NCBI GenBank assembly: GCA_947632325.1
Contig: CANROU010000005.1
Span: 2,135 to 66,134 of the forward strand
Origin: an uncultured Bacilli bacterium
GTDB lineage: Bacteria > Bacillota_I > Bacilli_A > RF39 > UBA660
Direction of reading: 5' to 3'
Length of the DNA stretch: 64,000 bases
Numbering within the stretch: the stretch's first letter is position 1; each line of letters starts with the position of its first letter. The notes under the pieces were generated by a model that was not told the origin of the DNA, did no database searches, and worked only from the letters and a program-made list of their open reading frames with translations. Position numbers and translations under genes: made by a program. Positions 22,786 through 31,241 of this stretch are shown here, in pieces.

Positions 22786-24226
22786 TATCTTTCCTCTTTT
22801 CTAATTCTTTTACAATCAAGTCAAGAGTTAACACAGGATCTGCTTGCCTATTAGTCTTCTGCATTACTTTTCCTACAAAAAAGTTCTTGACATAATCTTT
22901 TCCTTCTTTTATATATTGATCAACTTGTAAAGGATTTTCTTCAAGAGCATCTTTTACATGCTGTAAAATTATTTGATCATCTTTAATTTGTTCAATATTA
23001 TTTTCTTTAATGATATCTATTGGATCCTTTTTTTCTTTGATAGCTTGATAAATAATTTTTTTACCATGATTTAATGATATTTTATCTTCATTTATCAATT
23101 TAAGAACACCCGCTAACATCTTAGGCGTTATAAAAAATTCTTCCAAGGTAATATCTAATTTATTAAGGGTACCTAAAACAACAGTCATTACCCAGTTGGC
23201 TACACTTTCAATTGGTTTAGCACCTTCCTTAATTACAGCTTCAAAATAATCAGCAATACCTTTATCTTTAGCTAAAACACTAGCATCATAAAAACTTAAG
23301 CCATAATCTTGTTGGTAATTTTTGATACGTTCAAATTCTAATACTGGAATTTCTTGTCTAATACTATCTAAATATTCTTTACTTAATTTAACAGGTGGAA
23401 TATTAGGTTCAATAAAATATTTATAATCAATAGCATCTACCTTTTCTCGCATAGGATAGGTTTTGCCATCTTCATCAATTCTTCTTGTTTCCTGTTTAAC
23501 TTTGCCTCCTTGATCCAAGATCTCTGTTTGTCTTTTAATTTCATAATCAATAGCCGCTCTTACACTGGTAAAAGCATTGATGTTTTTCATCTCCACTTTA
23601 GTGCCTAATTTATCATCATCTGGTTTCATCAAAGAAATATTAACATCACATCGCATTTGCCCTTTATCACTTCTAGCATCGCTAACTTGACAATACAAGA
23701 AAACATTACGAAGAGCTTCCAAAAAACTGATGGCTTCATCACTTGAGGTTATACATGGTTCTGTAACAATTTCCATTAAAGGAATACCACTACGATTATA
23801 ATCAATCAATGAATAATTATTATAATGTTCTAAAGAGGCCGTATCTTCTTCCAAGTGTAATTGATGAATAAAAATCCTTTTTTCTTCTTCACCAACAAAA
23901 ATATCTAGATACCCATTAATACCACATGGTTTAGTTACTTGGGTAATTTGATATCCTTTAGGTAAATCAGGATAAAAATAATTCTTACGATCAAAAATAA
24001 CTTCATCAGGATTTTGACAGTTCAAAGCCATAGCGGTCTTTAAAGCTTTTCTTACAGCTTCTTTATTAGGAACAGGTAATATTCCTGGCAATCCCATATC
24101 AACTGTTGCAACATGTTCATTAGGAACAGTTGAATAAGTATTAAGACTATTTGAAAAATTTTTGGTTTTTGTCTTTAATTCACAATGAACCTCTAAACCA
24201 ATAACTACCTTATACAATTTTATCAC
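22772..24226 (-). CDS. gatB: Asp/Glu-tRNA amidotransferase subunit B
   Basis: 484 aa GatB/YqeY family with the typical N-terminus LEVHCEL and a C-terminal YqeY domain. Confidence 0.95.
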   Translation of the reverse strand: MIKLYKVVIGLEVHCELKTKTKNFSNSLNTYSTVPNEHVATVDMGLPGILPVPNKEAVRKALKTAMALNCQNPDEVIFDRKNYFYPDLPKGYQITQVTKPCGINGYLDIFVGEEEKRIFIHQLHLEEDTASLEHYNNYSLIDYNRSGIPLMEIVTEPCITSSDEAISFLEALRNVFLYCQVSDARSDKGQMRCDVNISLMKPDDDKLGTKVEMKNINAFTSVRAAIDYEIKRQTEILDQGGKVKQETRRIDEDGKTYPMREKVDAIDYKYFIEPNIPPVKLSKEYLDSIRQEIPVLEFERIKNYQQDYGLSFYDASVLAKDKGIADYFEAVIKEGAKPIESVANWVMTVVLGTLNKLDITLEEFFITPKMLAGVLKLINEDKISLNHGKKIIYQAIKEKKDPIDIIKENNIEQIKDDQIILQHVKDALEENPLQVDQYIKEGKDYVKNFFVGKVMQKTNRQADPVLTLDLIVKELEKRKDNERK

Positions 24227-25670
24227 CTGCCACCATATTTTTACATTTTAAAATATTTTCCATAGCCTGCGCCATCATTAAAACTACATCATCTTCCATA
24301 ATACGTCCAGTTATATTAATACCCACGGGCATAGCATCAACAAAAAACGCAGGAACAGTGATACTAGGAAAACCACCAAAATTACCGATTGCCAAATGGT
24401 TTTCTAAAAGCAAATACCTATCCGAAAGTTGATCACTTTTCGTTCCAAATAAAGGAGCAATTCCCCCACTAGCCGGCATGATTAAACCATCATATTTTTT
24501 AAATAACTCATTAACTTTATCGACGATAAGTCGCCTTACTCTACAAGCATTTAAAAATAACCGTTCTTGATTTTCTTTTTGTAAAATATAACTTCCCAAT
24601 ATAAAACGTCTTTTAATTAATTCTGAAAAACCCTTACTACGTGCATCAAACATAATTTCTTCTATACTATTTCCTTCACCTCTAGGACCAAATTGTATCC
24701 CTGTTAAGTTAGCATTATTACTAGTAGCTTCCGCACAAGAAATAGTCATATAAGCCGGATAAATCGCATTCAATAAATCTTTATCAAAAGAAATTCCTTC
24801 TATTTCAAAGCCAATTCCACGTAATTTATCCAACACTTCATGAAATTGTTTTAACGTTTCTATTAATTCACTATCATCTTGATCTTGATAATTATCTAAA
24901 TCACAAGCTTCCTTTATATAAAATAACTTTCTACCTTTAATACTATTATTTACCATTTTATGATATTCTTTACCATCATCTTTTAGACTAGTCATATCAA
25001 GTGGATCATATCCTTTGATAACATCGGTAACTATAGCAGCATCTAAGACATTTCTAGTAAGACAACCAACATGATCTAAACTAGATGCAAAAGCAAATAA
25101 CCCATATCTAGACACCCGTCCATAAGTAGGTTTAAAACCAACCACGCCACCAAAAGAAGCCGGTTTACGAATTGAATCACCTGTATCAGTACCAATGGCA
25201 AAAGGCACTACCCCTCGAGCTACCGATGCAGCACTGCCGGCAGATGAACCACCAATCATTCTAGCACTATCCCAAGGATTTTTGACAATACCCGTGTGAG
25301 CAGTAGTCCCAGTACCACCCATGGCTAACTCATCTAAGGTCGTTTTACCAACTAACACAGCACCACTTTGTTTTAACTTTTGATACACTGTAGCGTCATA
25401 CACTGGTATATAATCTTTTAATATATTACTAGATGCTGTCGTTAAAATACCTGAAGTAGAAATGTTATCTTTTAGACCATATGGTATACCTGATAATAAA
25501 GACTGGCTCTGTTTCATTTTAAATTTATCACAGATACTTACAAAAGAATTATCTTGTTCTTGGTATTGTTTAGCTAAATCTTTAGCGGTTTCAAATAACT
25601 CCTCCGCCGTTACCTTGCCTTCATCTAAACAAGAACGCAAATCCATAATTGTTTTATGTCTATAATCCAT
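24210..25670 (-). CDS. gatA: Asp/Glu-tRNA amidotransferase subunit A (amidase signature)
   Basis: Amidase signature GGSSAGSAASV and the Ser-cisSer-Lys triad region. Confidence 0.95.
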   Translation of the reverse strand: MDYRHKTIMDLRSCLDEGKVTAEELFETAKDLAKQYQEQDNSFVSICDKFKMKQSQSLLSGIPYGLKDNISTSGILTTASSNILKDYIPVYDATVYQKLKQSGAVLVGKTTLDELAMGGTGTTAHTGIVKNPWDSARMIGGSSAGSAASVARGVVPFAIGTDTGDSIRKPASFGGVVGFKPTYGRVSRYGLFAFASSLDHVGCLTRNVLDAAIVTDVIKGYDPLDMTSLKDDGKEYHKMVNNSIKGRKLFYIKEACDLDNYQDQDDSELIETLKQFHEVLDKLRGIGFEIEGISFDKDLLNAIYPAYMTISCAEATSNNANLTGIQFGPRGEGNSIEEIMFDARSKGFSELIKRRFILGSYILQKENQERLFLNACRVRRLIVDKVNELFKKYDGLIMPASGGIAPLFGTKSDQLSDRYLLLENHLAIGNFGGFPSITVPAFFVDAMPVGINITGRIMEDDVVLMMAQAMENILKCKNMVAGDKIV

Positions 25671-25980: not shown

Positions 25981-26224
25981 TAAAAAAAACAGTAACTCAT
26001 CCCCTTAGGGACGAATTACTGTAATAATCCGCGGTACCACCCACATTATTATGTTACCATAATCACTCACGAAATAACGGCTTCGTTACCGGCTTAGTCT
26101 AATCTCCCACGGATTTCTTTAAGCACTCCGAAGTGTTTTTCAAAATAACCTTTTTATTGGATTCCACCATTTCCAACTCTCTATCAAAAAGTATTATTTA
26201 TACTCCTCTTCATCCACGTTTTTC
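25981..26224 (-). promoter_or_regulatory. T-box riboswitch leader of gatCAB-aspS, with candidate specifier AAC (Asn)
   Basis: Minus strand carries the T-box consensus AAUAAUGUGGGUGGUACCGCGG (26029-26050) and an intrinsic terminator ACAGUAA...UUACUGU plus U9 (25981-26022). Stem I has AGAGA and a specifier loop GAAA-AAC-A-CUUCGG that aligns with glyQS GAA-GGC-A-CUUCG. Confidence 0.85.
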
Positions 26225-26231
26225 AGTTAAG

Positions 26232-26396: not shown

Positions 26397-27578
26397 CTAA
26401 TTTTTTTGTTTTTGATAATTAATATGTTCTTGTTTAAAGATTTCTGTTTTTATAGTCATTAAGTTATCTTTTTGATTTAATAAATCATCTTCCACAACAG
26501 TTAATTGCTCTAATAATTGTTGATATTGTGGATTATCTAATCCTAAATCATAAAATTCTTTATCTATTTCCCGCTTTAATCTCTTAGTATTATATAAAGC
26601 GCTATCAATCATAGTATTAATATATTTATTATTATATAACATACCCTTAATTTCTTTTTCATAATCGATGCTAGGCAATATTTCCTCATCTGTAATAACC
26701 TTACGACTTTGCTTAAAGAGATGATTTAAAATAGTTACCTTAAATACTAACTTACAAAGAGGATTTAAAGGTGCCATATTGATAGCTTGATAAAACAATA
26801 GATTTTCCATTAGAGCTTGTTGCGTTAATTCCCATTTTATTCTTGTTCTCTCAACTGTTTTTGTTTTTTCTTGTAATTTTTCTGTGATACTTTTAAGTTC
26901 CCTATTTTGATTAGCTATCCATTTTTTAATATCCTTAACATTTTCAGCTATATCATCCTTTTCTTTTTCTAAAATAGTAGAGTCAATAGAATCTTCTTCT
27001 TTATCTAGTACGTCATAACTTAAAATTATTTCTTGTTCTTTAATCGTATAAAATTTTTCTTCAATGGCCTGTTCTTCAAACCATTGTTGATATTCATCGA
27101 TGGCCTTATTTCTATCATCTATTATCGTATTTTTATCATCTGCCGTTAAATTACTATTATCTAATTCTGTTAAATCAAGTATATCTTCCCTCATCTTATT
27201 ATCGATAATAAGCGTCACAATTTCTTGCTCTATTTCTTCTAACTCTTGAGCAATGTTATCATACTCTTCTTGTTTTATATTATCCATTAAATGATTATCA
27301 TCATCTAAAACAATTTCAGCTTCTTCTGTTAAATATGTTTGATAAATATCTGTAATATGTTGTTGTTCATATTCTAATTTATCATCTAATAAAGATATAA
27401 CTTTTTTACGATTTTCGGTAACAGTTTTTCTCCTGTTTTTATCTTCTTCATCTTTTGTAAAAGCCATACCAATAATTAAGGGTAAAAACAACAAATCACG
27501 AATACCATAAACAGAACGTTTTTTTCTATTAGTTATCTTTTTTTGAGTTCTTTGTTTTTTTTCTTTTTCCTTTTGCAT
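26397..27578 (-). CDS. hypothetical membrane-anchored coiled-coil protein (EzrA-like architecture, but short)
   Basis: Basic N-terminus, one TM (LLFLPLIIGMAF), then about 330 aa of E/K/D/Q-rich coiled coil. Confidence 0.5.
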   Translation of the reverse strand: MQKEKEKKQRTQKKITNRKKRSVYGIRDLLFLPLIIGMAFTKDEEDKNRRKTVTENRKKVISLLDDKLEYEQQHITDIYQTYLTEEAEIVLDDDNHLMDNIKQEEYDNIAQELEEIEQEIVTLIIDNKMREDILDLTELDNSNLTADDKNTIIDDRNKAIDEYQQWFEEQAIEEKFYTIKEQEIILSYDVLDKEEDSIDSTILEKEKDDIAENVKDIKKWIANQNRELKSITEKLQEKTKTVERTRIKWELTQQALMENLLFYQAINMAPLNPLCKLVFKVTILNHLFKQSRKVITDEEILPSIDYEKEIKGMLYNNKYINTMIDSALYNTKRLKREIDKEFYDLGLDNPQYQQLLEQLTVVEDDLLNQKDNLMTIKTEIFKQEHINYQKQKN

Positions 27579-27700: not shown

Positions 27701-27701
27701 T

Positions 27702-27778
27702 GGTGACCTGTATGGGATTTGAACCCACGAATACCACCTTGAGAGGGTGGCGTGTTAAACCGCTTCACCAACAGGCCA
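27702..27778 (-). tRNA. tRNA-Glu, anticodon CUC
   Basis: Minus strand GGCCTGTTGGTGAAGCGGTTTAACACGCCACCCTCTCAAGGTGGTATTCGTGGGTTCAAATCCCATACAGGTCACCA. Cloverleaf with anticodon loop CUCUCAA. About 80% identical to B. subtilis tRNA-Glu. The 3' CCA is encoded. Confidence 0.8.
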
Positions 27779-27849
27779 ATTAGATAAAATCCCATAAAGG
27801 ACTTTATCAGTTTATCATAATTTATTTGGTTTGACAATATTTCTAATAT

Positions 27850-29502
27850 CTAATCTTCTAAATATTTTTTAAAATGATCAATTCTCTTAGCTAATGATTC
27901 TTTCCCTAATATTTTTAATATTTCATATAAATCAGGACTCATCTTTTTACCTGTAACACAAGCTCTAATTGTCTCACAAACATCTCCAACATGACCTTTA
28001 TATTCTTCTGGATTTTCTTTATATTGTTTAACTTCTCTAGCATAACCATTATCTTGAGCTAATCCTTTTAATCTTTCCATCCATTCTTCCTTAGAATCAG
28101 TATCTTGATAAATATTTAAATATTGTTCTACCAAAGATACATCATAATTTTTATCATTTTCAAGGCCACTATAGGCGCTTTCTGGATCTTTATTTAAAAA
28201 TATTTCATCATAGAAATTTTCAAATTCATGTTTTACATCCGAATAGCTTGCTAAATCTTTTCGAGGACGTTTGACCTCTCGCTCAATATTAAGTAAAGCT
28301 ATTGTTTTTTCTTTGTTCTTTTCTATAATTTGCGCAAAATCTTGGTCATATTCTTGATAGTATGTAAGAGTACCATCATATAAGTTGTTAGCTTTCAACA
28401 TTGAAAAATAAATTCTAGAGACGCTATTTAGTTTTTCAAGGTCAAAATAAGTTCCACCAACGGGCATTTTTTGAAATTGAAATGCAAAATCATCCAAAGT
28501 TTTATCTTTATTTTGATTATACCACATTTCAAAATTGGCATTAGCAAGAGTGGCTAAGAAGAGTTTTACAGCGTCATGAGGGATCCCCTTTTCATGATAA
28601 AAGCGAATTGAAGCATCTGGATCTTTACGTTTGCTTAATTTTCGAACACTAGTACCTTCTCTTTTTGTAAGGGGTGCAATATGAGCATACTTTGGAGGTG
28701 TAAAACCAAGAACTTCAAATAATTGAAGATGTACTGGCACTGAACTTACCCATTCATCACCGCGAATAACATGAGTCGTACGCATCAAATGATCATCGAT
28801 TGCATGGGCAAAATGATAAGTTGGAACTCCATCTTGTTTCAGTAAAATGATGTCCATATCATTTTCAGGAAAAGAAATATTTCCCTTAATACAATCATGA
28901 AAGTTAATCGTCTTATGAAAATCCCCTGGAGATTTTAGACGAATGACATAAGGAAGCCCTGCATCTAGTTTTGCCTTAATTTCATCGAATGTTAAATTAC
29001 GATTCATCGCATACATTCCATAATAACCAATGCGCACTTTCTCGCGTTCCTGCCGATTTCTAAGTTCAGCTAGTTCCTTTTCTGTACAGAAGCAAGGATA
29101 CGCCAAACCTCTTTTGATTAAGTCTTTGACATAAGTTTGGTATATCTCGACACGTTCAGATTGAATATAAGGACCATAGACTCCGCCCTGAAGAGGTCCT
29201 TCATCTATTTTAAAATCAAAACTTTTTAAATCATTGATAATCCCCGTAATCCCATTTTCTACTTCTCTTTTCTGATCAGTATCTTCAATTCGCAAATAGA
29301 AAACGCCATTCGTTTGACGTGCCATTTTACTGGCAATAAAAGCTTGATAGAGACTACCCATGTGAACAAAACCAGTAGGACTTGGAGCAAAACGGGTGAC
29401 AATCGCTCCCTTTTCTAGATTCCTTTCTGGATACATTGCTTCATAATCTTCAGGTGTCTTCATAATATTTGGAAATAATAATTCAGCTAATTCTTTTTGC
29501 AT
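27850..29502 (-). CDS. gltX: glutamate--tRNA ligase, probably non-discriminating
   Basis: RFAPSPTG...HMGS (HIGH variant) and KLSKR (KMSKS). 550 aa with a C-terminal extension. Confidence 0.85.
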   Translation of the reverse strand: MQKELAELLFPNIMKTPEDYEAMYPERNLEKGAIVTRFAPSPTGFVHMGSLYQAFIASKMARQTNGVFYLRIEDTDQKREVENGITGIINDLKSFDFKIDEGPLQGGVYGPYIQSERVEIYQTYVKDLIKRGLAYPCFCTEKELAELRNRQEREKVRIGYYGMYAMNRNLTFDEIKAKLDAGLPYVIRLKSPGDFHKTINFHDCIKGNISFPENDMDIILLKQDGVPTYHFAHAIDDHLMRTTHVIRGDEWVSSVPVHLQLFEVLGFTPPKYAHIAPLTKREGTSVRKLSKRKDPDASIRFYHEKGIPHDAVKLFLATLANANFEMWYNQNKDKTLDDFAFQFQKMPVGGTYFDLEKLNSVSRIYFSMLKANNLYDGTLTYYQEYDQDFAQIIEKNKEKTIALLNIEREVKRPRKDLASYSDVKHEFENFYDEIFLNKDPESAYSGLENDKNYDVSLVEQYLNIYQDTDSKEEWMERLKGLAQDNGYAREVKQYKENPEEYKGHVGDVCETIRACVTGKKMSPDLYEILKILGKESLAKRIDHFKKYLED

Positions 29503-29525
29503 ACGTTCCCTCTTTCTTTATGAAA

Positions 29526-29552
29526 AAACATCTATTTAGTAGATGTTAATTT
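29526..29552 (-). terminator. terminator after tRNA-Gln, 24 nt before the gltX start
   Basis: Stem AACAUCUA(CUAAA)UAGAUGUU plus U7. Confidence 0.55.
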
Positions 29553-29554
29553 TA

Positions 29555-29629
29555 TGGTTGCCTCGGTTAGATTCGAACTAACGCGTCGTGCGGTCAGAGC
29601 GCACTGCCTTACCACTTGGCTACGAGGCA
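29555..29629 (-). tRNA. tRNA-Gln, anticodon CUG
   Basis: Minus strand TGCCTCGTAGCCAAGTGGTAAGGCAGTGCGCTCTGACCGCAC...GTTCGAATC...CGAGGCAACCA. U1:A72, Gln-type D-loop, anticodon loop CUCUGAC. Confidence 0.8.
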
Positions 29630-29751
29630 ATTTCACTTATTTATAATCTTAACTCTTTTTCCTAGAAAATTCAATACCTTCAAATAAATTAACCACAATT
29701 ACATCACAAATTTGACCATTTTAAAGCCCGAACCACAAAAGTTCGAACCCT

Positions 29752-29817
29752 TAATCACTTTGATAGATGAAGAGAAGAAGTACGACAACTATTAACAAAT
29801 TCTTCAAATATTTTTTC
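29752..29817 (-). CDS. possible 21-aa small ORF (MEKIFEEFVNSCRTSSLHLSK) upstream of tRNA-Gln
   Basis: RBS GAGGTGATTAG-ATG and a TATAAT about 20 nt upstream. No homology assessable. Confidence 0.2.
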
Positions 29818-29919
29818 CATCTAATCACCTCTATTTTTATTATTATAATATATTTTGCTTTAACAAAATCAATGTGCAAATATGTTTTCTAAACTGTCAT
29901 AAATTTAGTATCAACTATA

Positions 29920-29948
29920 TTGTACAATGAACGAATGTTTGATATAAT
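29920..29948 (+). promoter_or_regulatory. near-consensus promoter TTGTAC-N17-(TG)TATAAT for the 27-aa peptide gene
   Basis: Plus strand reads TTGTACaatgaacgaatgtTTGATATAAT. Confidence 0.55.
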
Positions 29949-30010
29949 TTTTATAGGAATATTTGACAGTTGAGTGCTTGCCAACTTCTAAAAGGAAGGA
30001 GGCTGATAGT

Positions 30011-30094
30011 ATGTTTAAGAAAGATTTTTTAATCTTCTCACTTATTCTTATTATCTTTTTACTAATAGCCTTACTTTTTACTTTTGTAATATAG
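30011..30094 (+). CDS. 27-aa hydrophobic peptide MFKKDFLIFSLILIIFLLIALLFTFVI (type I toxin-like small membrane protein)
   Basis: Perfect SD AAGGAAGGAGG 8 nt upstream, a consensus promoter, and a single predicted TM helix. A 3' imperfect hairpin AGCACUCAAUC/GAUUAAGUGCU follows the stop. Confidence 0.5.
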   Translation: MFKKDFLIFSLILIIFLLIALLFTFVI

Positions 30095-30235
30095 TATCCT
30101 ATGTAAAAGAAAAGCACTCAATCTAACAAGATTAAGTGCTAACCAATAGATTGGCGAGTACTCCACATTGCGTTGTTAAGTATTCCCCTTTTTATTTTAT
30201 GCAAGTTCCCTTGACATATTCATAATAACATAAAA

Positions 30236-30268
30236 ACGCACTTTCATCAAGTACGTTTTCTATTTTTA
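30236..30268 (-). terminator. terminator after tRNA-Met
   Basis: Stem AACGUAC(UUGAUGAAA)GUGCGUU plus UUUUUAU. Confidence 0.5.
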
Positions 30269-30296
30269 CTCGAAAAGTCCGAGTTTGCTATCTTTA

Positions 30297-30373
30297 TGGT
30301 AGCGATGGGGGGGATCGAACCCTCGACCTCTCGGGTATGAACCGAACGCTCTAGCCAGCTGAGCTACATCGCT
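30297..30373 (-). tRNA. tRNA with CAU anticodon (elongator Met or Ile2-lysidine; not initiator)
   Basis: Minus strand AGCGATGTAGCTCAGCTGGCTAGAGCGTTCGGTTCATACCCGAGAGGTCGAGGGTTCGATCCCCCCCATCGCTACCA. The anticodon stem lacks the 3 G-C pairs expected of an initiator. Confidence 0.8.
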
Positions 30374-30393
30374 ATATCACATGGACAATATTG

Positions 30394-30422
30394 ATTATAA
30401 CAAAGTTCCCTTTTTTTTACAA
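30394..30422 (-). promoter_or_regulatory. promoter TTGTAA-N17-TATAAT for tRNA-CAU
   Basis: Minus strand reads TTGTAAaaaaaagggaactttgtTATAAT, about 20 nt before the mature tRNA 5' end. Confidence 0.5.
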
Positions 30423-30455
30423 CTATTTTTTACAAAATTACTAAAATATAAAACT

Positions 30456-31241
30456 TTAACCAAATAATATTAAATATAATTTAACACCTATTCTTTGTAA
30501 TAATGGCGCTCTGTAAACCTTTCTAAGTTTATCAGTCTCTACAGCTTTTATAAATTTTTTCACAATAGACCGATTAGAATCTTTTCCTAAAAAATGAAAT
30601 AATTTCTTTTCAATAGTACTTATTTTTCTTTTATTTAATACAAAATATGGACTATCATCAAAAAACAATTCCTTATTATCTAACATAACATCATTAAATC
30701 CAGTATTATAAATACCTGGTTCTATCAATCCTATTTGTAATGATGTCTTTATTAATTTCAATTCCTGCCTCAATGTTTTTACCATAATTGATATAGCTGC
30801 TTTAGTAGAACAATAACTACCTAAAAAAGGAATAGGTATAATCCCTGCGATAGAAGAAGTAACTATAATTTTGGCGTTATCTTTTTTTAACATCTTAGGT
30901 AATGCTGTTTTAATTAATGAAAAAGTTCCAAAATAATTAGTTTCAAAATTTTCTCTAATTTTAGTGATAGGCAAATCGACTAAAGAGCCGCCTACTCCAA
31001 TACCAGCGTGGCAAATAAGACAATCGATATCCAACTGATTAACATATTCAAGATCTTTATTATCAGTAATATCTAATTTAAAACAAATAATATTTAAATT
31101 CAAATGATTTAATCTTTCTTTTAAAAGAAGAGCTTGTTGATTAGTGTGTGTGGTAATATACACTAAATGTTTTTTTTGAGCTAAAGTTAAAGCTACATCT
31201 AAACCAATACCACCAGCACTACCTGTTATTAATATTTTCAC
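30456..31241 (-). CDS. short-chain dehydrogenase/reductase (SDR)
   Basis: TGSAGGIG Rossmann motif and the YCSTK catalytic YxxxK. Confidence 0.8.
   Translation of the reverse strand: MKILITGSAGGIGLDVALTLAQKKHLVYITTHTNQQALLLKERLNHLNLNIICFKLDITDNKDLEYVNQLDIDCLICHAGIGVGGSLVDLPITKIRENFETNYFGTFSLIKTALPKMLKKDNAKIIVTSSIAGIIPIPFLGSYCSTKAAISIMVKTLRQELKLIKTSLQIGLIEPGIYNTGFNDVMLDNKELFFDDSPYFVLNKRKISTIEKKLFHFLGKDSNRSIVKKFIKAVETDKLRKVYRAPLLQRIGVKLYLILFG

What the first reader, a model, noticed from the sequence alone, without database searches (positions are those of the whole stretch)
29920..30240. Highly expressed 27-aa hydrophobic peptide gene in the tRNA island, a type I toxin-antitoxin-like module
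MFKKDFLIFSLILIIFLLIALLFTFVI is a single-TM peptide with a perfect SD (AAGGAAGGAGG) and a consensus promoter (TTGTAC-N17-TGATATAAT). The 5' UTR contains the stem AGUUG-AGUGCUUGCC-AACU. The 3' region has an 11-bp imperfect hairpin and a related motif (GAGUGCUUGCCAAC in the 5' UTR versus AAGUGCUAACCAAU in the 3' region), the kind of 5'/3' repeats that pair with antitoxin RNAs in the fst/RNAII, txpA/RatA and bsrG/SR4 systems. A possible convergent minus-strand promoter (TTGTTA-N17-TTACAT, about 30105-30135) would give an antisense RNA across the ORF. Location between tRNA genes is typical for such modules.
Basis: partly seen in the sequence, partly recalled or inferred. Interest (0 to 1): 0.55.

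Follow-up and report, generated by a model that had tools for sequence, protein, structure and literature searches.

The report
New type I toxin-antitoxin-like module
Between two tRNA genes of an uncultured gut bacterium lies a tiny membrane-peptide gene facing a conserved antisense small-RNA gene, built like the Bacillus type I toxin-antitoxin systems but belonging to an undescribed, unannotated family found on about 45 other metagenome contigs.

Summary
A 27-aa hydrophobic ORF (30011-30094, +) has a strong SD and a near-consensus extended -10 promoter.

The antisense gene does not cross the ORF. It is a ~112-nt convergent sRNA (about 30216 to 30105, minus strand). Its promoter (TTGATG-N17-TGtTATTAT, 30250..30222) is conserved in position in 41/41 related modules. 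Its terminator (30140..30113 plus a U run) sits just after the stop codon. The sRNA overlaps about 94 nt of the mRNA 3' UTR.

The 5' UTR does not act as a local stem. The first ~29 nt of the mRNA pair with the terminator region in a long-range helix:
- It is present in all 38 aligned modules.
- 27 of 40 tested pairs show compensatory changes.
- G.U outnumbers A.C by 90 to 18, which points to the sense RNA.

Codon-position statistics show the ORF is coding.

The family does not reach Pfam Hol_Tox or Rfam BsrG thresholds, and none of the ten peptide sequences looked up (the window's included) is in a 15-billion-protein catalogue. It shares the BsrG-family architecture and an identical 16-mer after the terminator.

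Toxicity and transcription are untested.

Verdict: a new family of a known kind.

The parts
29920..29948 (+). Promoter of the peptide mRNA: TTGTAC-N17-TG-n-TATAAT (extended -10)
   Evidence: Read directly and found by the promoter scan, 10/12 matches with TG. The TATAAT block is conserved in alignment A1.
29956..30198 (+). Predicted peptide (toxin-like) mRNA, ~243 nt, from the inferred TSS (GG 7-8 nt after the -10) to the end of the U tract
   Evidence: Ends are inferred from the promoter and terminator. The fold has z = -6.15 against shuffles. MFE is -72.5 kcal/mol.
29956..29984 (+). 5' arm of the long-range closing helix. H1a is 29956-29968. H2a, also called X1, is 29972-29984 (X1 repeat 29970-29984).
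   Evidence: Pairs with 30174-30186 and 30151-30163. Covariation. Cognate versus non-cognate duplex energies. G.U 90 versus A.C 18.
29992..30002 (+). Shine-Dalgarno AAGGAAGGAGG, predicted to be mostly base-paired
   Evidence: SD unpaired probability is 0.07 in the window and averages 0.17 over 38 modules.
30011..30094 (+). 27-aa ORF MFKKDFLIFSLILIIFLLIALLFTFVI: a basic N-terminus followed by a single hydrophobic helix
   Evidence: Homologous ORFs occur in ~45 modules. Single-nucleotide codon differences fall at positions 1/2/3 as 69/10/140, with 144 synonymous and 75 non-synonymous.
30105..30216 (-). Predicted antisense sRNA (antitoxin candidate), ~112 nt, complementary to ~94 nt of the mRNA 3' UTR (30105-30198)
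   Evidence: Promoter and terminator. The fold has z = -3.97. CM R1 built on its 5' 74 nt scores 74.4 bits here.
30104..30140 (-). Antisense terminator: 12-bp hairpin 30140..30113 followed by UUUCUUUU. Its arms are X'a (30112-30121) and part of X2 (30132-30146).
   Evidence: Terminator scan. A hairpin preceded on the sense strand by an A run is conserved across A1. The A.C 27 versus G.U 10 count on the + strand means it is optimised on the minus strand.
30132..30146 (+). X2, a direct repeat of the 5' UTR element X1. Its complement in the sRNA can pair with X1.
   Evidence: D4. The X1:sRNA duplex is -13.2 kcal/mol in the window. The cognate mean is -12.4 against -7.1 for non-cognate pairs.
30151..30186 (+). 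3' arm of the long-range helix (H2b 30151-30163, H1b 30174-30186). On its own it folds into the mRNA's terminator hairpin.
   Evidence: A local hairpin of -11.4 kcal/mol abuts the U tract, and 37 of 38 modules have such a hairpin.
30189..30204 (+). U tract plus the conserved 16-mer TTTTTATTTTATGCAA
   Evidence: It was used to retrieve the family. The same 16-mer follows the terminator of Bacillus-type BsrG-family loci.
30199..30217 (-). 5'-terminal hairpin of the sRNA: AUG(U)CAAG-GGAA-CUUGCAU
   Evidence: Read from the sequence. An equivalent hairpin with changed stems occurs in the other subfamilies.
30222..30250 (-). Antisense promoter TTGATG-N17-TG-t-TATTAT
   Evidence: In 41/41 full modules there is a TTGnnn or TTTACA -35, a 17-nt spacer (18 nt in one) and TG-n-TAnnAT, 17-20 nt from the complement of the 16-mer.
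30232..30260 (.). Bidirectional hairpin (AAAAACGCACTT-TCATC-AAGTACGTTTT). It is the terminator of the convergent tRNA-Met unit and a back-up terminator for the mRNA. The antisense -35 lies inside it.
   Evidence: It is 92% identical over 73 nt to L019, where it lies next to tRNA-Glu.

Best explanation
This is a type I toxin-antitoxin-like module of a previously undescribed family, found in uncultured low-GC gut Bacilli (RF39-like MAGs).

**The sense transcript.** A strong promoter makes a ~243-nt mRNA for a 27-aa single-helix membrane peptide, the presumed toxin.
- The first ~29 nt of the mRNA pair with the two arms of its own terminator region, forming a ~28-bp closing helix.
- The SD is sequestered as well, so the full-length mRNA is predicted to be stable but poorly translated.

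**The antisense transcript.** A convergent ~112-nt sRNA, the presumed antitoxin, is transcribed from a conserved extended -10 promoter just beyond the mRNA terminator.
- It ends at its own terminator immediately after the stop codon.
- It is perfectly complementary to ~94 nt of the 3' UTR, including the 3' arm of the closing helix.

**Inferred action**, by analogy with bsrG/SR4, bsrE/SR5 and txpA/RatA.
- Duplex formation gives an RNase III substrate.
- It also strips the partner of the mRNA's 5' end, exposing that end to decay.
- Through the X1/X2 repeat, the sRNA can additionally pair with the 5' UTR.

**Shown here:** the ORF is coding; the long-range helix is conserved and covaries; the antisense promoter and terminator are conserved; distribution is patchy and multi-copy.

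**Inferred only:** both RNAs are made, the peptide is toxic, the sRNA neutralises it, and which RNases take part.
For: **Family**
- An exact-motif scan retrieved about 45 homologous modules, which fall into at least 5 peptide subfamilies.

**Coding**
- Single-nucleotide codon differences at positions 1/2/3 are 69/10/140, 20/9/38 and 485/232/831 in the three length groups.

**Long-range helix**
- RNAalifold finds it independently.
- All 38 sequences, folded singly, show 19-30 long-range pairs.
- 83.9% of cells are paired, against 74.4% in shuffles (0/500 reach it) and about 40% when the partners are slid. 27 of 40 pairs show double-sided changes.
- Cognate 5'/3' duplexes average -35.2 kcal/mol, against -19.3 for diverged non-cognate pairs.
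- G.U 90 versus A.C 18 points to the sense strand.

**Antisense unit**
- A promoter with an extended -10 is present in 41/41 modules at a fixed position, and predicted sRNAs are 91-134 nt where a terminator U run was located (38 of 41).
- The post-stop hairpin is optimised on the minus strand: A.C 27 versus G.U 10 on the + strand.
- The window's sRNA fold has z = -3.97.

**Translation and termination signals**
- The SD is mostly paired, with unpaired probability 0.17.
- A terminator hairpin abuts the U tract in 37/38 modules.

**Accessory behaviour**
- The module is absent from the closest relative L001, where tRNA-Met and tRNA-Gln are 44 nt apart.
- It is present in only 3 of 79 sources, 890 kb in all.
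- Two copies occur per contig in L101, L112, L195 and L104.

**Architecture of the known systems**
- Architecture matches Rfam BsrG: closing helix, SD hairpin and terminator.
- It also matches the B. subtilis systems, where antitoxins bind 100-140 nt at the toxin mRNA 3' end (PMC6562991).
Against: - There is no transcript evidence for either RNA and no toxicity data. The organism is uncultured.
- The peptide has no similarity to any curated toxin family. Pfam and NCBIfam give nothing, and hhalign against a Hol_Tox peptide gives nothing.
- The RNA does not reach Rfam BsrG, or any antitoxin family, even at E <= 10.
- Masking the 3' UTR in silico does not clearly change SD accessibility (0.17 versus 0.24). 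A translational effect of the sRNA is therefore not predicted.
- The family was collected with an exact 19-mer. Invariance of that motif is by construction, and the sample is biased.
- The window's peptide lacks the C-terminal Lys residues present in several subfamilies.
Confidence: 0.72

Rival explanations
1. The sense/antisense architecture is the same, but the peptide is a non-toxic small membrane protein, for example a regulator or stabiliser of a membrane complex. Its synthesis is simply tuned by a cis-antisense sRNA. On this reading it is not an addiction or toxin system.
For: No toxin-family match. Purifying selection on the peptide fits any functional peptide. Some B. subtilis relatives, such as BsrE, are only weakly toxic (PMC6562991).
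Against: - Distribution is patchy, multi-copy and independent of context: the module abuts 8 different tRNA species, sits in tandem copies, and is absent from the closest relative. Housekeeping small proteins do not usually behave this way.
- Variants with frameshifted or extended ORFs exist (L094, L135), as is often seen for toxins.
- Tight multilayer repression is the hallmark of type I toxins (closing helix, sequestered SD, antisense RNA).
Confidence: 0.2
2. The element is a miniature inverted-repeat mobile element that targets tRNA 3' ends. The 5'-3' complementarity reflects terminal inverted repeats in DNA, and the ORF is incidental.
For: Inverted repeats flank the ORF (I10/I19). The element sits next to many different tRNA genes. 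Its distribution is patchy and multi-copy.
Against: - G.U outnumbers A.C by 90 to 18 in the repeats, so selection acts on the sense-strand RNA, not on duplex DNA.
- Both promoters lie outside the 'repeats' yet are conserved with them.
- The ORF shows the third-position substitution bias expected of a coding sequence.
- I saw no target-site duplication or transposase, though I did not look for either systematically.
- Mobility of the whole cassette is not excluded. That would be an extra property of the module, not an alternative identity.
Confidence: 0.04
3. The ORF is a chance ORF in an AT-rich spacer that merely holds terminators and promoters for the flanking tRNA genes.
For: AT-rich DNA (29.5% GC) yields many hydrophobic short ORFs. 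The 30232-30260 hairpin does serve as the tRNA-Met terminator.
Against: The ORF, SD and spacing are conserved in ~45 modules with coding-type substitutions. It is the only short ORF in the window that combines a strong SD, high hydrophobicity and an intergenic position. The RNA folds have z = -6.15 and -3.97.
Confidence: 0.02

Closest known systems
Bacillus BsrG/TxpA/BsrE/BsrH-type type I TA systems (toxin mRNA family Rfam RF01412 'BsrG'; toxins Pfam PF16935 Hol_Tox; antitoxins SR4, RatA, SR5, as-bsrH)
   Same: - The toxin ORF is small (27-59 aa) and hydrophobic.
- The toxin mRNA is ~240-290 nt and closed by a helix between its extreme 5' end and the region before or at the terminator, with the SD in a helix.
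- A convergent antisense RNA is complementary to ~100 nt of the 3' UTR (PMC6562991).
- The identical 16-mer TTTTTATTTTATGCAA directly follows the terminator, and a short ATGCAA-containing hairpin follows it in most loci shown (5 of 7 Bacillus-type).
   Different: - No match to RF01412, even at E <= 10.
- No match to Hol_Tox. The peptides start MxKK[DR] rather than MSTF/MTVYE.
- Here the 3' partner of the 5' end is the terminator hairpin itself, not a separate segment upstream of it.
- The sRNA is shorter (~112 nt against 163-222 nt) and stops before the ORF.
- The host is an uncultured RF39-like gut lineage, with modules at tRNA 3' ends rather than in prophage or skin elements.
fst/RNA I-RNA II (par of pAD1) family
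   Same: The RNAs are convergent. Direct repeats make the antitoxin complementary to the toxin's 5' region as well as its 3' region. Here the X1/X2 repeat gives a 14/15-nt pairing by hand count (-13.2 kcal/mol in the window; cognate mean -12.4 against -7.1 for non-cognate). The SD is sequestered in a structured 5' UTR.
   Different: - No Fst toxin (PF13955) match.
- Each RNA has its own terminator instead of one shared bidirectional terminator.
- The X1 site lies 8-22 nt upstream of the SD, not over the start codon.
- The main complementarity here is a ~94-nt perfect overlap.
hok/sok and aapA/IsoA (Gram-negative type I TA) fold-back inhibition
   Same: The full-length toxin mRNA is locked by pairing of its 5' and 3' ends. 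Alternative, metastable pairings are built from repeated complementary elements (X1/X2 and X'a/X'b).
   Different: In those systems the antisense acts at the 5' part or leader after 3' processing. There is no sequence or taxonomic relation. 3' processing is not indicated here.

Membership tests
Type I toxin-antitoxin systems (general class) | Small (<60 aa) hydrophobic, membrane-type peptide ORF that is really coding | tested here: met
   27 aa, 81% hydrophobic residues, basic N-terminus. Codon-position and synonymous bias in three length groups.
Type I toxin-antitoxin systems (general class) | Antisense RNA gene complementary to the toxin mRNA | tested here: met
   Sequence signals only. An extended -10 promoter is conserved in 41/41 modules, with an antisense-strand terminator and ~94 nt of overlap. 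Whether the RNA is actually made could not be tested.
Type I toxin-antitoxin systems (general class) | Peptide is toxic when over-expressed, and the antisense RNA neutralises it | not testable with these tools
   Needs expression experiments. The organism is uncultured.
Type I toxin-antitoxin systems (general class) | Toxin mRNA is structured so that translation is intrinsically restrained | tested here: met
   Covarying 5'-3' helix. SD unpaired probability 0.07 in the window and 0.17 on average.
BsrG/TxpA/BsrE/BsrH family (Rfam RF01412) | Toxin mRNA matches covariance model RF01412 at or above 55 bits | tested here: not met
   No hit at gathering score and none at E <= 10 on 29450-30500. Bacillus-type loci score 107-217 bits.
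BsrG/TxpA/BsrE/BsrH family (Pfam PF16935 Hol_Tox) | Toxin matches Hol_Tox | tested here: not met
   No hit for the window peptide or for 4 subfamily representatives at E <= 10. Control MSTF peptides hit at 1e-13. hhalign of A2 against a Hol_Tox peptide gives probability 0.8%.
BsrG/TxpA/BsrE/BsrH family | [quoted passage not shown] | tested here: inconclusive
   The geometry is the same, but the overlap is ~94 nt and the sRNA is shorter (against PMC6562991). RNA ends are predicted, not mapped.
BsrG/TxpA/BsrE/BsrH family | Shared sequence signature at the 3' end (terminator U tract followed by ATGCAA hairpin) | tested here: met
   The identical 16-mer lies 115-144 nt after Hol_Tox ORFs in 13 viral loci. 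In the 6 of those loci scanned with Rfam, it starts 3-4 nt after the end of the RF01412 match. It suggests common descent but does not prove it.
Fst/RNA II (par) family | Fst-type toxin (PF13955), and one bidirectional terminator shared by both RNAs | tested here: not met
   No Pfam hit. The two RNAs have separate terminators: 30151-30198 on the + strand and 30140-30105 on the minus strand.
Fst/RNA II (par) family | Direct repeats give antitoxin complementarity to the toxin's translation-initiation region | tested here: inconclusive
   The X1/X2 repeat lets the sRNA pair with the 5' UTR, and this co-evolves. The site is upstream of the SD and does not cover the SD or the AUG.
MITE-like mobile element | Terminal inverted repeats selected at DNA level, target-site duplication, non-coding interior | tested here: not met
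   G.U/A.C asymmetry of 90:18, a coding ORF, and conserved promoters outside the repeats. Target-site duplications were not searched for systematically.

The most novel reading that the evidence does not exclude
The module may represent a distant, unannotated branch of the BsrG/TxpA RNA scaffold that has spread through reduced-genome uncultured gut Bacilli as a ~350-bp self-contained cassette. Three twists would set it apart.
- The mRNA's 5' end is complementary to both arms of its own terminator. The terminator would fold first, and the transcript would then refold into a closed, end-protected form.
- Co-evolving repeated elements (X1/X2 and X'a/X'b) let a single short sRNA attack both the 3' UTR and the 5' UTR.
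- The cassette lodges preferentially, in convergent orientation, at the 3' ends of tRNA genes. There its bidirectional hairpin doubles as the tRNA terminator and carries the antitoxin's -35 box.
Probability: 0.3. Interest if true: 0.6.

Novelty: new member of a known kind. Interest (0 to 1): 0.5.

Why it matters
Type I TA systems have been catalogued almost entirely in cultured bacteria. T1TAdb holds 24 families from 218 species (PMC8594479). They are usually missed by annotation: none of ten peptide sequences looked up, nine of them from this family, is in a 15-billion-protein catalogue.

A comparatively well-supported new family in RF39-like gut Bacilli would be useful in four ways:
- It would extend the class to a major uncultured, genome-reduced gut lineage.
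- It would supply about 45 natural sequence variants of a toxin mRNA with a covarying 5'-3' lock, useful for studying RNA refolding and for engineering RNA devices.
- It hints at an old RNA-level relationship with the Bacillus BsrG/TxpA systems despite unrelated peptides.
- It flags tRNA 3' ends as preferred sites for such cassettes.

Tried and rejected
- **Exact-protein lookup of the neighbouring GluRS:** not on record.
- **Pfam and NCBIfam on the 27-aa and 43-aa versions of the ORF:** nothing.
- **tblastn and blastn against 78 syntenic genome loci:** the peptide gave only noise. The DNA found L019 and L076, which opened up the family.
- **Exact lookup of 10 peptides:** none is in the collection.
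- **hhalign of the family against a Hol_Tox peptide:** no relation.
- **blastn against annotated plasmids and phages:** no match.
- **Weak Rfam hit to Enterococcus sRNA Ref64** (22.9 bits against 44.3 needed, E = 0.12, on the sRNA's 3' half). A paper search for 'Ref64' found nothing, so the lead was dropped.
rejected. It has a poor -10, was not called by the scan and lies inside the antisense terminator.
rejected as the functional structure, because it is not conserved outside one subfamily.
- **A switch in SD accessibility on sRNA binding:** tested in silico and not supported.
- **An antisense promoter in the equivalent position in Bacillus-type loci:** I tried to find one by eye, and it was not convincing.
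- **Region upstream of the module (29630-29915):** no counterpart in any fetched locus.
Full report
**What is at the coordinates.**
- The window has 29.5% GC, and almost all its genes are on the minus strand.
- Two minus-strand tRNA genes flank the finding: tRNA-Gln(CUG) at 29555-29629 and tRNA-Met at 30297-30373.
- The SD AAGGAAGGAGG (29992-30002) lies 8 nt upstream of the ATG.
- The promoter is TTGTAC-N17-TATAAT with an extended TG (29920-29948).
- Of the 11 short, SD-preceded, hydrophobic ORFs that a simple scan of the window returned, it is the only one in an intergenic spacer. The other ten lie inside longer ORFs.
- The hairpin at 30113-30140 and the direct repeat 29970-84 / 30132-46 are also real.

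**The antisense unit is elsewhere than proposed.**
- The scan finds a minus-strand promoter TTGATG-N17-TG-t-TATTAT at 30250..30222.
- It also finds a minus-strand intrinsic terminator: the hairpin 30140..30113 followed by UUUCUUUU.
- Together these define a ~112-nt RNA from about 30216 to 30105.
- That RNA folds well (z = -3.97). It overlaps the 3' UTR of the peptide mRNA, not the ORF.
It has a poor -10 and was not called.

**The mRNA is closed by a long-range helix.**
- Folding 29955-30275 gives z = -6.15.
- The predicted first nucleotides of the transcript (GG at 29956, 7-8 nt after the -10) through 29984 pair with 30151-30186, in 13 + 2 + 13 base pairs.
- The same 3' segment, folded alone, forms a hairpin that abuts the U tract 30189-30198. 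That is the mRNA's terminator.
- The 5' UTR is therefore complementary to both arms of the terminator.

**Relatives.**
- The neighbouring 550-aa GluRS-like gene retrieved 78 syntenic loci from uncultured gut Bacilli, 'Tenericutes' and Erysipelotrichaceae-labelled MAGs.
- The closest locus, L001 (77% identity), has tRNA-Met and tRNA-Gln only 44 nt apart, with no module between them.
- blastn found a 92%-identical 73-nt stretch in L019, which lies next to tRNA-Glu on the other side of GluRS. It found a weaker match in L076.
- Both loci hold a complete module with a different small hydrophobic peptide.
- The motif shared by all three, CCYTTTTTATTTTATGCAA, was scanned in the metagenome collection.
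- About 45 of those loci carry a module.
- The peptides fall into at least five subfamilies (alignment A2). All have a basic N-terminus, M-x-K-K-[DR], and a ~20-residue hydrophobic stretch. Many end in KK.

**The ORF is coding.** Within the three length classes, single-nucleotide codon differences fall on positions 1/2/3 as 69/10/140, 20/9/38 and 485/232/831. In the window's class, 144 are synonymous and 75 non-synonymous.

**The long-range helix is conserved and covaries.**
- RNAalifold on the 38-sequence alignment A1 recovers helix H2 without guidance. Sixteen of its 22 predicted pairs show compensatory changes.
- Each of the 38 sequences, folded alone, has 19-30 pairs between its first 32 nt and its last 60 nt.
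- On the window-derived structure, 83.9% of cells are paired. Shuffles give 74.4% (0/500 reach the observed value), and sliding the partners gives about 40%.
- 27 of 40 pairs have double-sided changes, and H2 is 95.8% paired.
- Cognate 5'/3' duplexes average -35.2 +/- 4.5 kcal/mol. Pairs taken from diverged modules average -19.3 +/- 5.3.
- In these helices G.U outnumbers A.C by 90 to 18. This means selection acts on the sense RNA, not on DNA inverted repeats.
- The post-stop hairpin shows the opposite bias on the plus strand (A.C 27, G.U 10). It is therefore optimised on the antisense strand, as a terminator of the sRNA should be.

**The antisense gene is conserved.**
- In all 41 full-length modules the antisense strand has a TTGnnn or TTTACA -35, a 17-nt spacer (18 nt in one) and TG-n-TAnnAT.
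- The -10 ends 17-20 nt before the complement of the 16-mer.
- Predicted sRNAs are 91-134 nt in the 38 modules where the script located a terminator U run.
- The sRNA begins with a short hairpin. In the window this is AUG(U)CAAG-GGAA-CUUGCAU at 30217..30199. Its stem changes between subfamilies.

- X1 (in the 5' UTR) and X2 (the 3' arm of the post-stop hairpin) are similar.
- X'a (just after the stop codon) and X'b (the 3' arm of H2) are both complementary to them.
- The alternative pairings X1:X'a, X2:X'b and X1:sRNA (through the complement of X2) all co-evolve. Cognate means are -13.0, -9.8 and -12.4 kcal/mol. Non-cognate means are -7.1, -5.7 and -7.1.
- The mRNA therefore has alternative conformers, and the sRNA can contact the 5' UTR as well as the 3' UTR.

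**Translation signals.**
- The SD is predicted to be mostly paired: unpaired probability 0.07 in the window and 0.17 on average.
- It stays so when the 3' UTR is masked to mimic sRNA binding (0.24).
- I therefore infer that the sRNA acts mainly through duplex formation and decay, and by freeing the mRNA's 5' end. An SD switch is not indicated.

**Distribution.**
- A covariance model of the sRNA's first 74 nt (R1) finds only the window, L019 and L076 in 890 kb, namely the window plus the 78 syntenic loci.
- Two copies per contig occur in L101, L112, L195 and L104.
- Twelve modules, the window's included, abut the 3' end of a convergent tRNA gene. Eight anticodon species are involved: Met, Glu-CUC, Glu-UUC, Lys, Arg, Ala, Ser and Leu.
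- The hairpin that ends the tRNA unit also contains the antisense -35 box.

**Relation to known systems.**
- The bare 16-mer was scanned in viral contigs. In 13 of the 120 loci returned, it lay 115-144 nt after ORFs such as MSTFQALMLMLAFGSFII....
- Three representative peptides of this group match Pfam Hol_Tox at ~1e-13.
- Six of these loci were scanned with Rfam, and all six match RF01412 'BsrG' at 107-217 bits.
- In those six the RF01412 match ends 3-4 nt before the 16-mer. The model has the same logic: a helix closing the 5' end onto the region before the terminator, a 5' UTR to post-stop helix, and an SD hairpin.
- In B. subtilis, the antitoxins of txpA, bsrG, bsrE, bsrH and yonT bind 100-140 nt at the toxin mRNA 3' end and promote decay. 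RNase III cleaves the duplex for txpA, bsrG, bsrE and yonT, whereas bsrH mRNA levels depend on RNase J1, not RNase III. SR4 also tightens SD sequestration (PMC6562991).
- The window's module matches neither RF01412 nor Hol_Tox, Fst, or any Pfam or NCBIfam model.
- None of the ten peptide sequences looked up (the window's two ORF versions and eight from related modules) is in a 15-billion-protein collection.
- There is no blastn match in annotated plasmids or phages.
- T1TAdb covers 24 families from cultured species only (PMC8594479).
- I therefore do not file the module as a member of the BsrG family. It works like one, and the shared 16-mer suggests remote common descent.

**Limits.**
- No transcript or toxicity evidence is available.
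- RNA ends are inferred from promoter and terminator signals.
- The family was gathered with an exact motif, so the motif's invariance and the sample composition are biased.
- Pairwise substitution counts are not phylogenetically independent.

**Verdict.**
- The object is a well-supported candidate for a new type I TA family.
- It is of moderate interest and sits within a known class.

Noticed in passing
window 29755-29879 (minus strand): Upstream of tRNA-Gln there is a separate minus-strand promoter (TTGATT-N16-TATTAT, 29872..29845). It is followed by a good SD (GAGGTGA), a 21-aa ORF (MEKIFEEFVNSCRTSSLHLSK, 29820..29755) and a G.U-containing hairpin (about 29750..29721). This ~290-nt stretch (29630-29915) has no counterpart in any fetched locus, and it is absent from L001, where tRNA-Met and tRNA-Gln are adjacent. 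It may be a leader or attenuator, or a remnant brought in with the insertion.
   Followed up: partly
viral loci L199, L208, L226, L243, L262, L267, L268, L289, L290, L293, L298, L316: Bacillus-type BsrG/Hol_Tox toxin loci carry the same 16-mer TTTTTATTTTATGCAA immediately after their terminator. In 5 of the 7 loci displayed it is followed by a small palindrome, ATGCAAA-nnnn-TTTGCAT. This signature lies just outside the Rfam RF01412 model and may be a conserved part of the antitoxin genes.
   Followed up: partly
L151 9568-9952; L094 3716-4100; L135 403-787: Some family members look degenerate.
- L151 has a 5' end that does not pair with its own 3' end (-17.2 kcal/mol against the family mean of -35.2). 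It looks like a chimera of two subfamilies.
- L094 and L135 have altered, extended ORF ends (…KIEVIKNDTHSHSE and …KKWHLIFT).

These may be decaying or inactivated copies.
   Followed up: no
window 27701-29629; loci L001-L078: A 550-aa GluRS-like gene (PSPTG / KLSKRK motifs, which are the HIGH-region and KMSKS class I synthetase signatures) is preceded by tRNA-Gln(CUG). In the window and L019 it is followed by tRNA-Glu(CUC). A tRNA-Gln(CUG) lies directly upstream of this gene in three of the five relatives scanned for tRNAs (L001, L015, L019). Such a long GluRS paired with tRNA-Gln may be a non-discriminating or otherwise specialised enzyme.
   Followed up: no
window 26004-26225 (minus strand): A T-box leader (RF00230, 118 bits) lies in the 335-nt gap between the ORFs at 26397-27578 and 24210-25670, 3.7 kb from the finding. 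It is unrelated to the module.
   Followed up: no
window 30105-30165 (minus strand): There is a sub-threshold Rfam match of the sRNA's 3' half to Enterococcus sRNA Ref64 (RF02847): 22.9 bits against a gathering score of 44.3, E = 0.12. What Ref64 is could not be established from the paper library.
   Followed up: partly
L101 10216-12847; L112 272-2941; L195 1022-1781: Two modules lie within 0.5-2.3 kb on the same contig. In L112 they belong to two different peptide subfamilies, each with its matching 5'/3' helix sequence. This points to paralogous, mutually insulated copies.
   Followed up: partly
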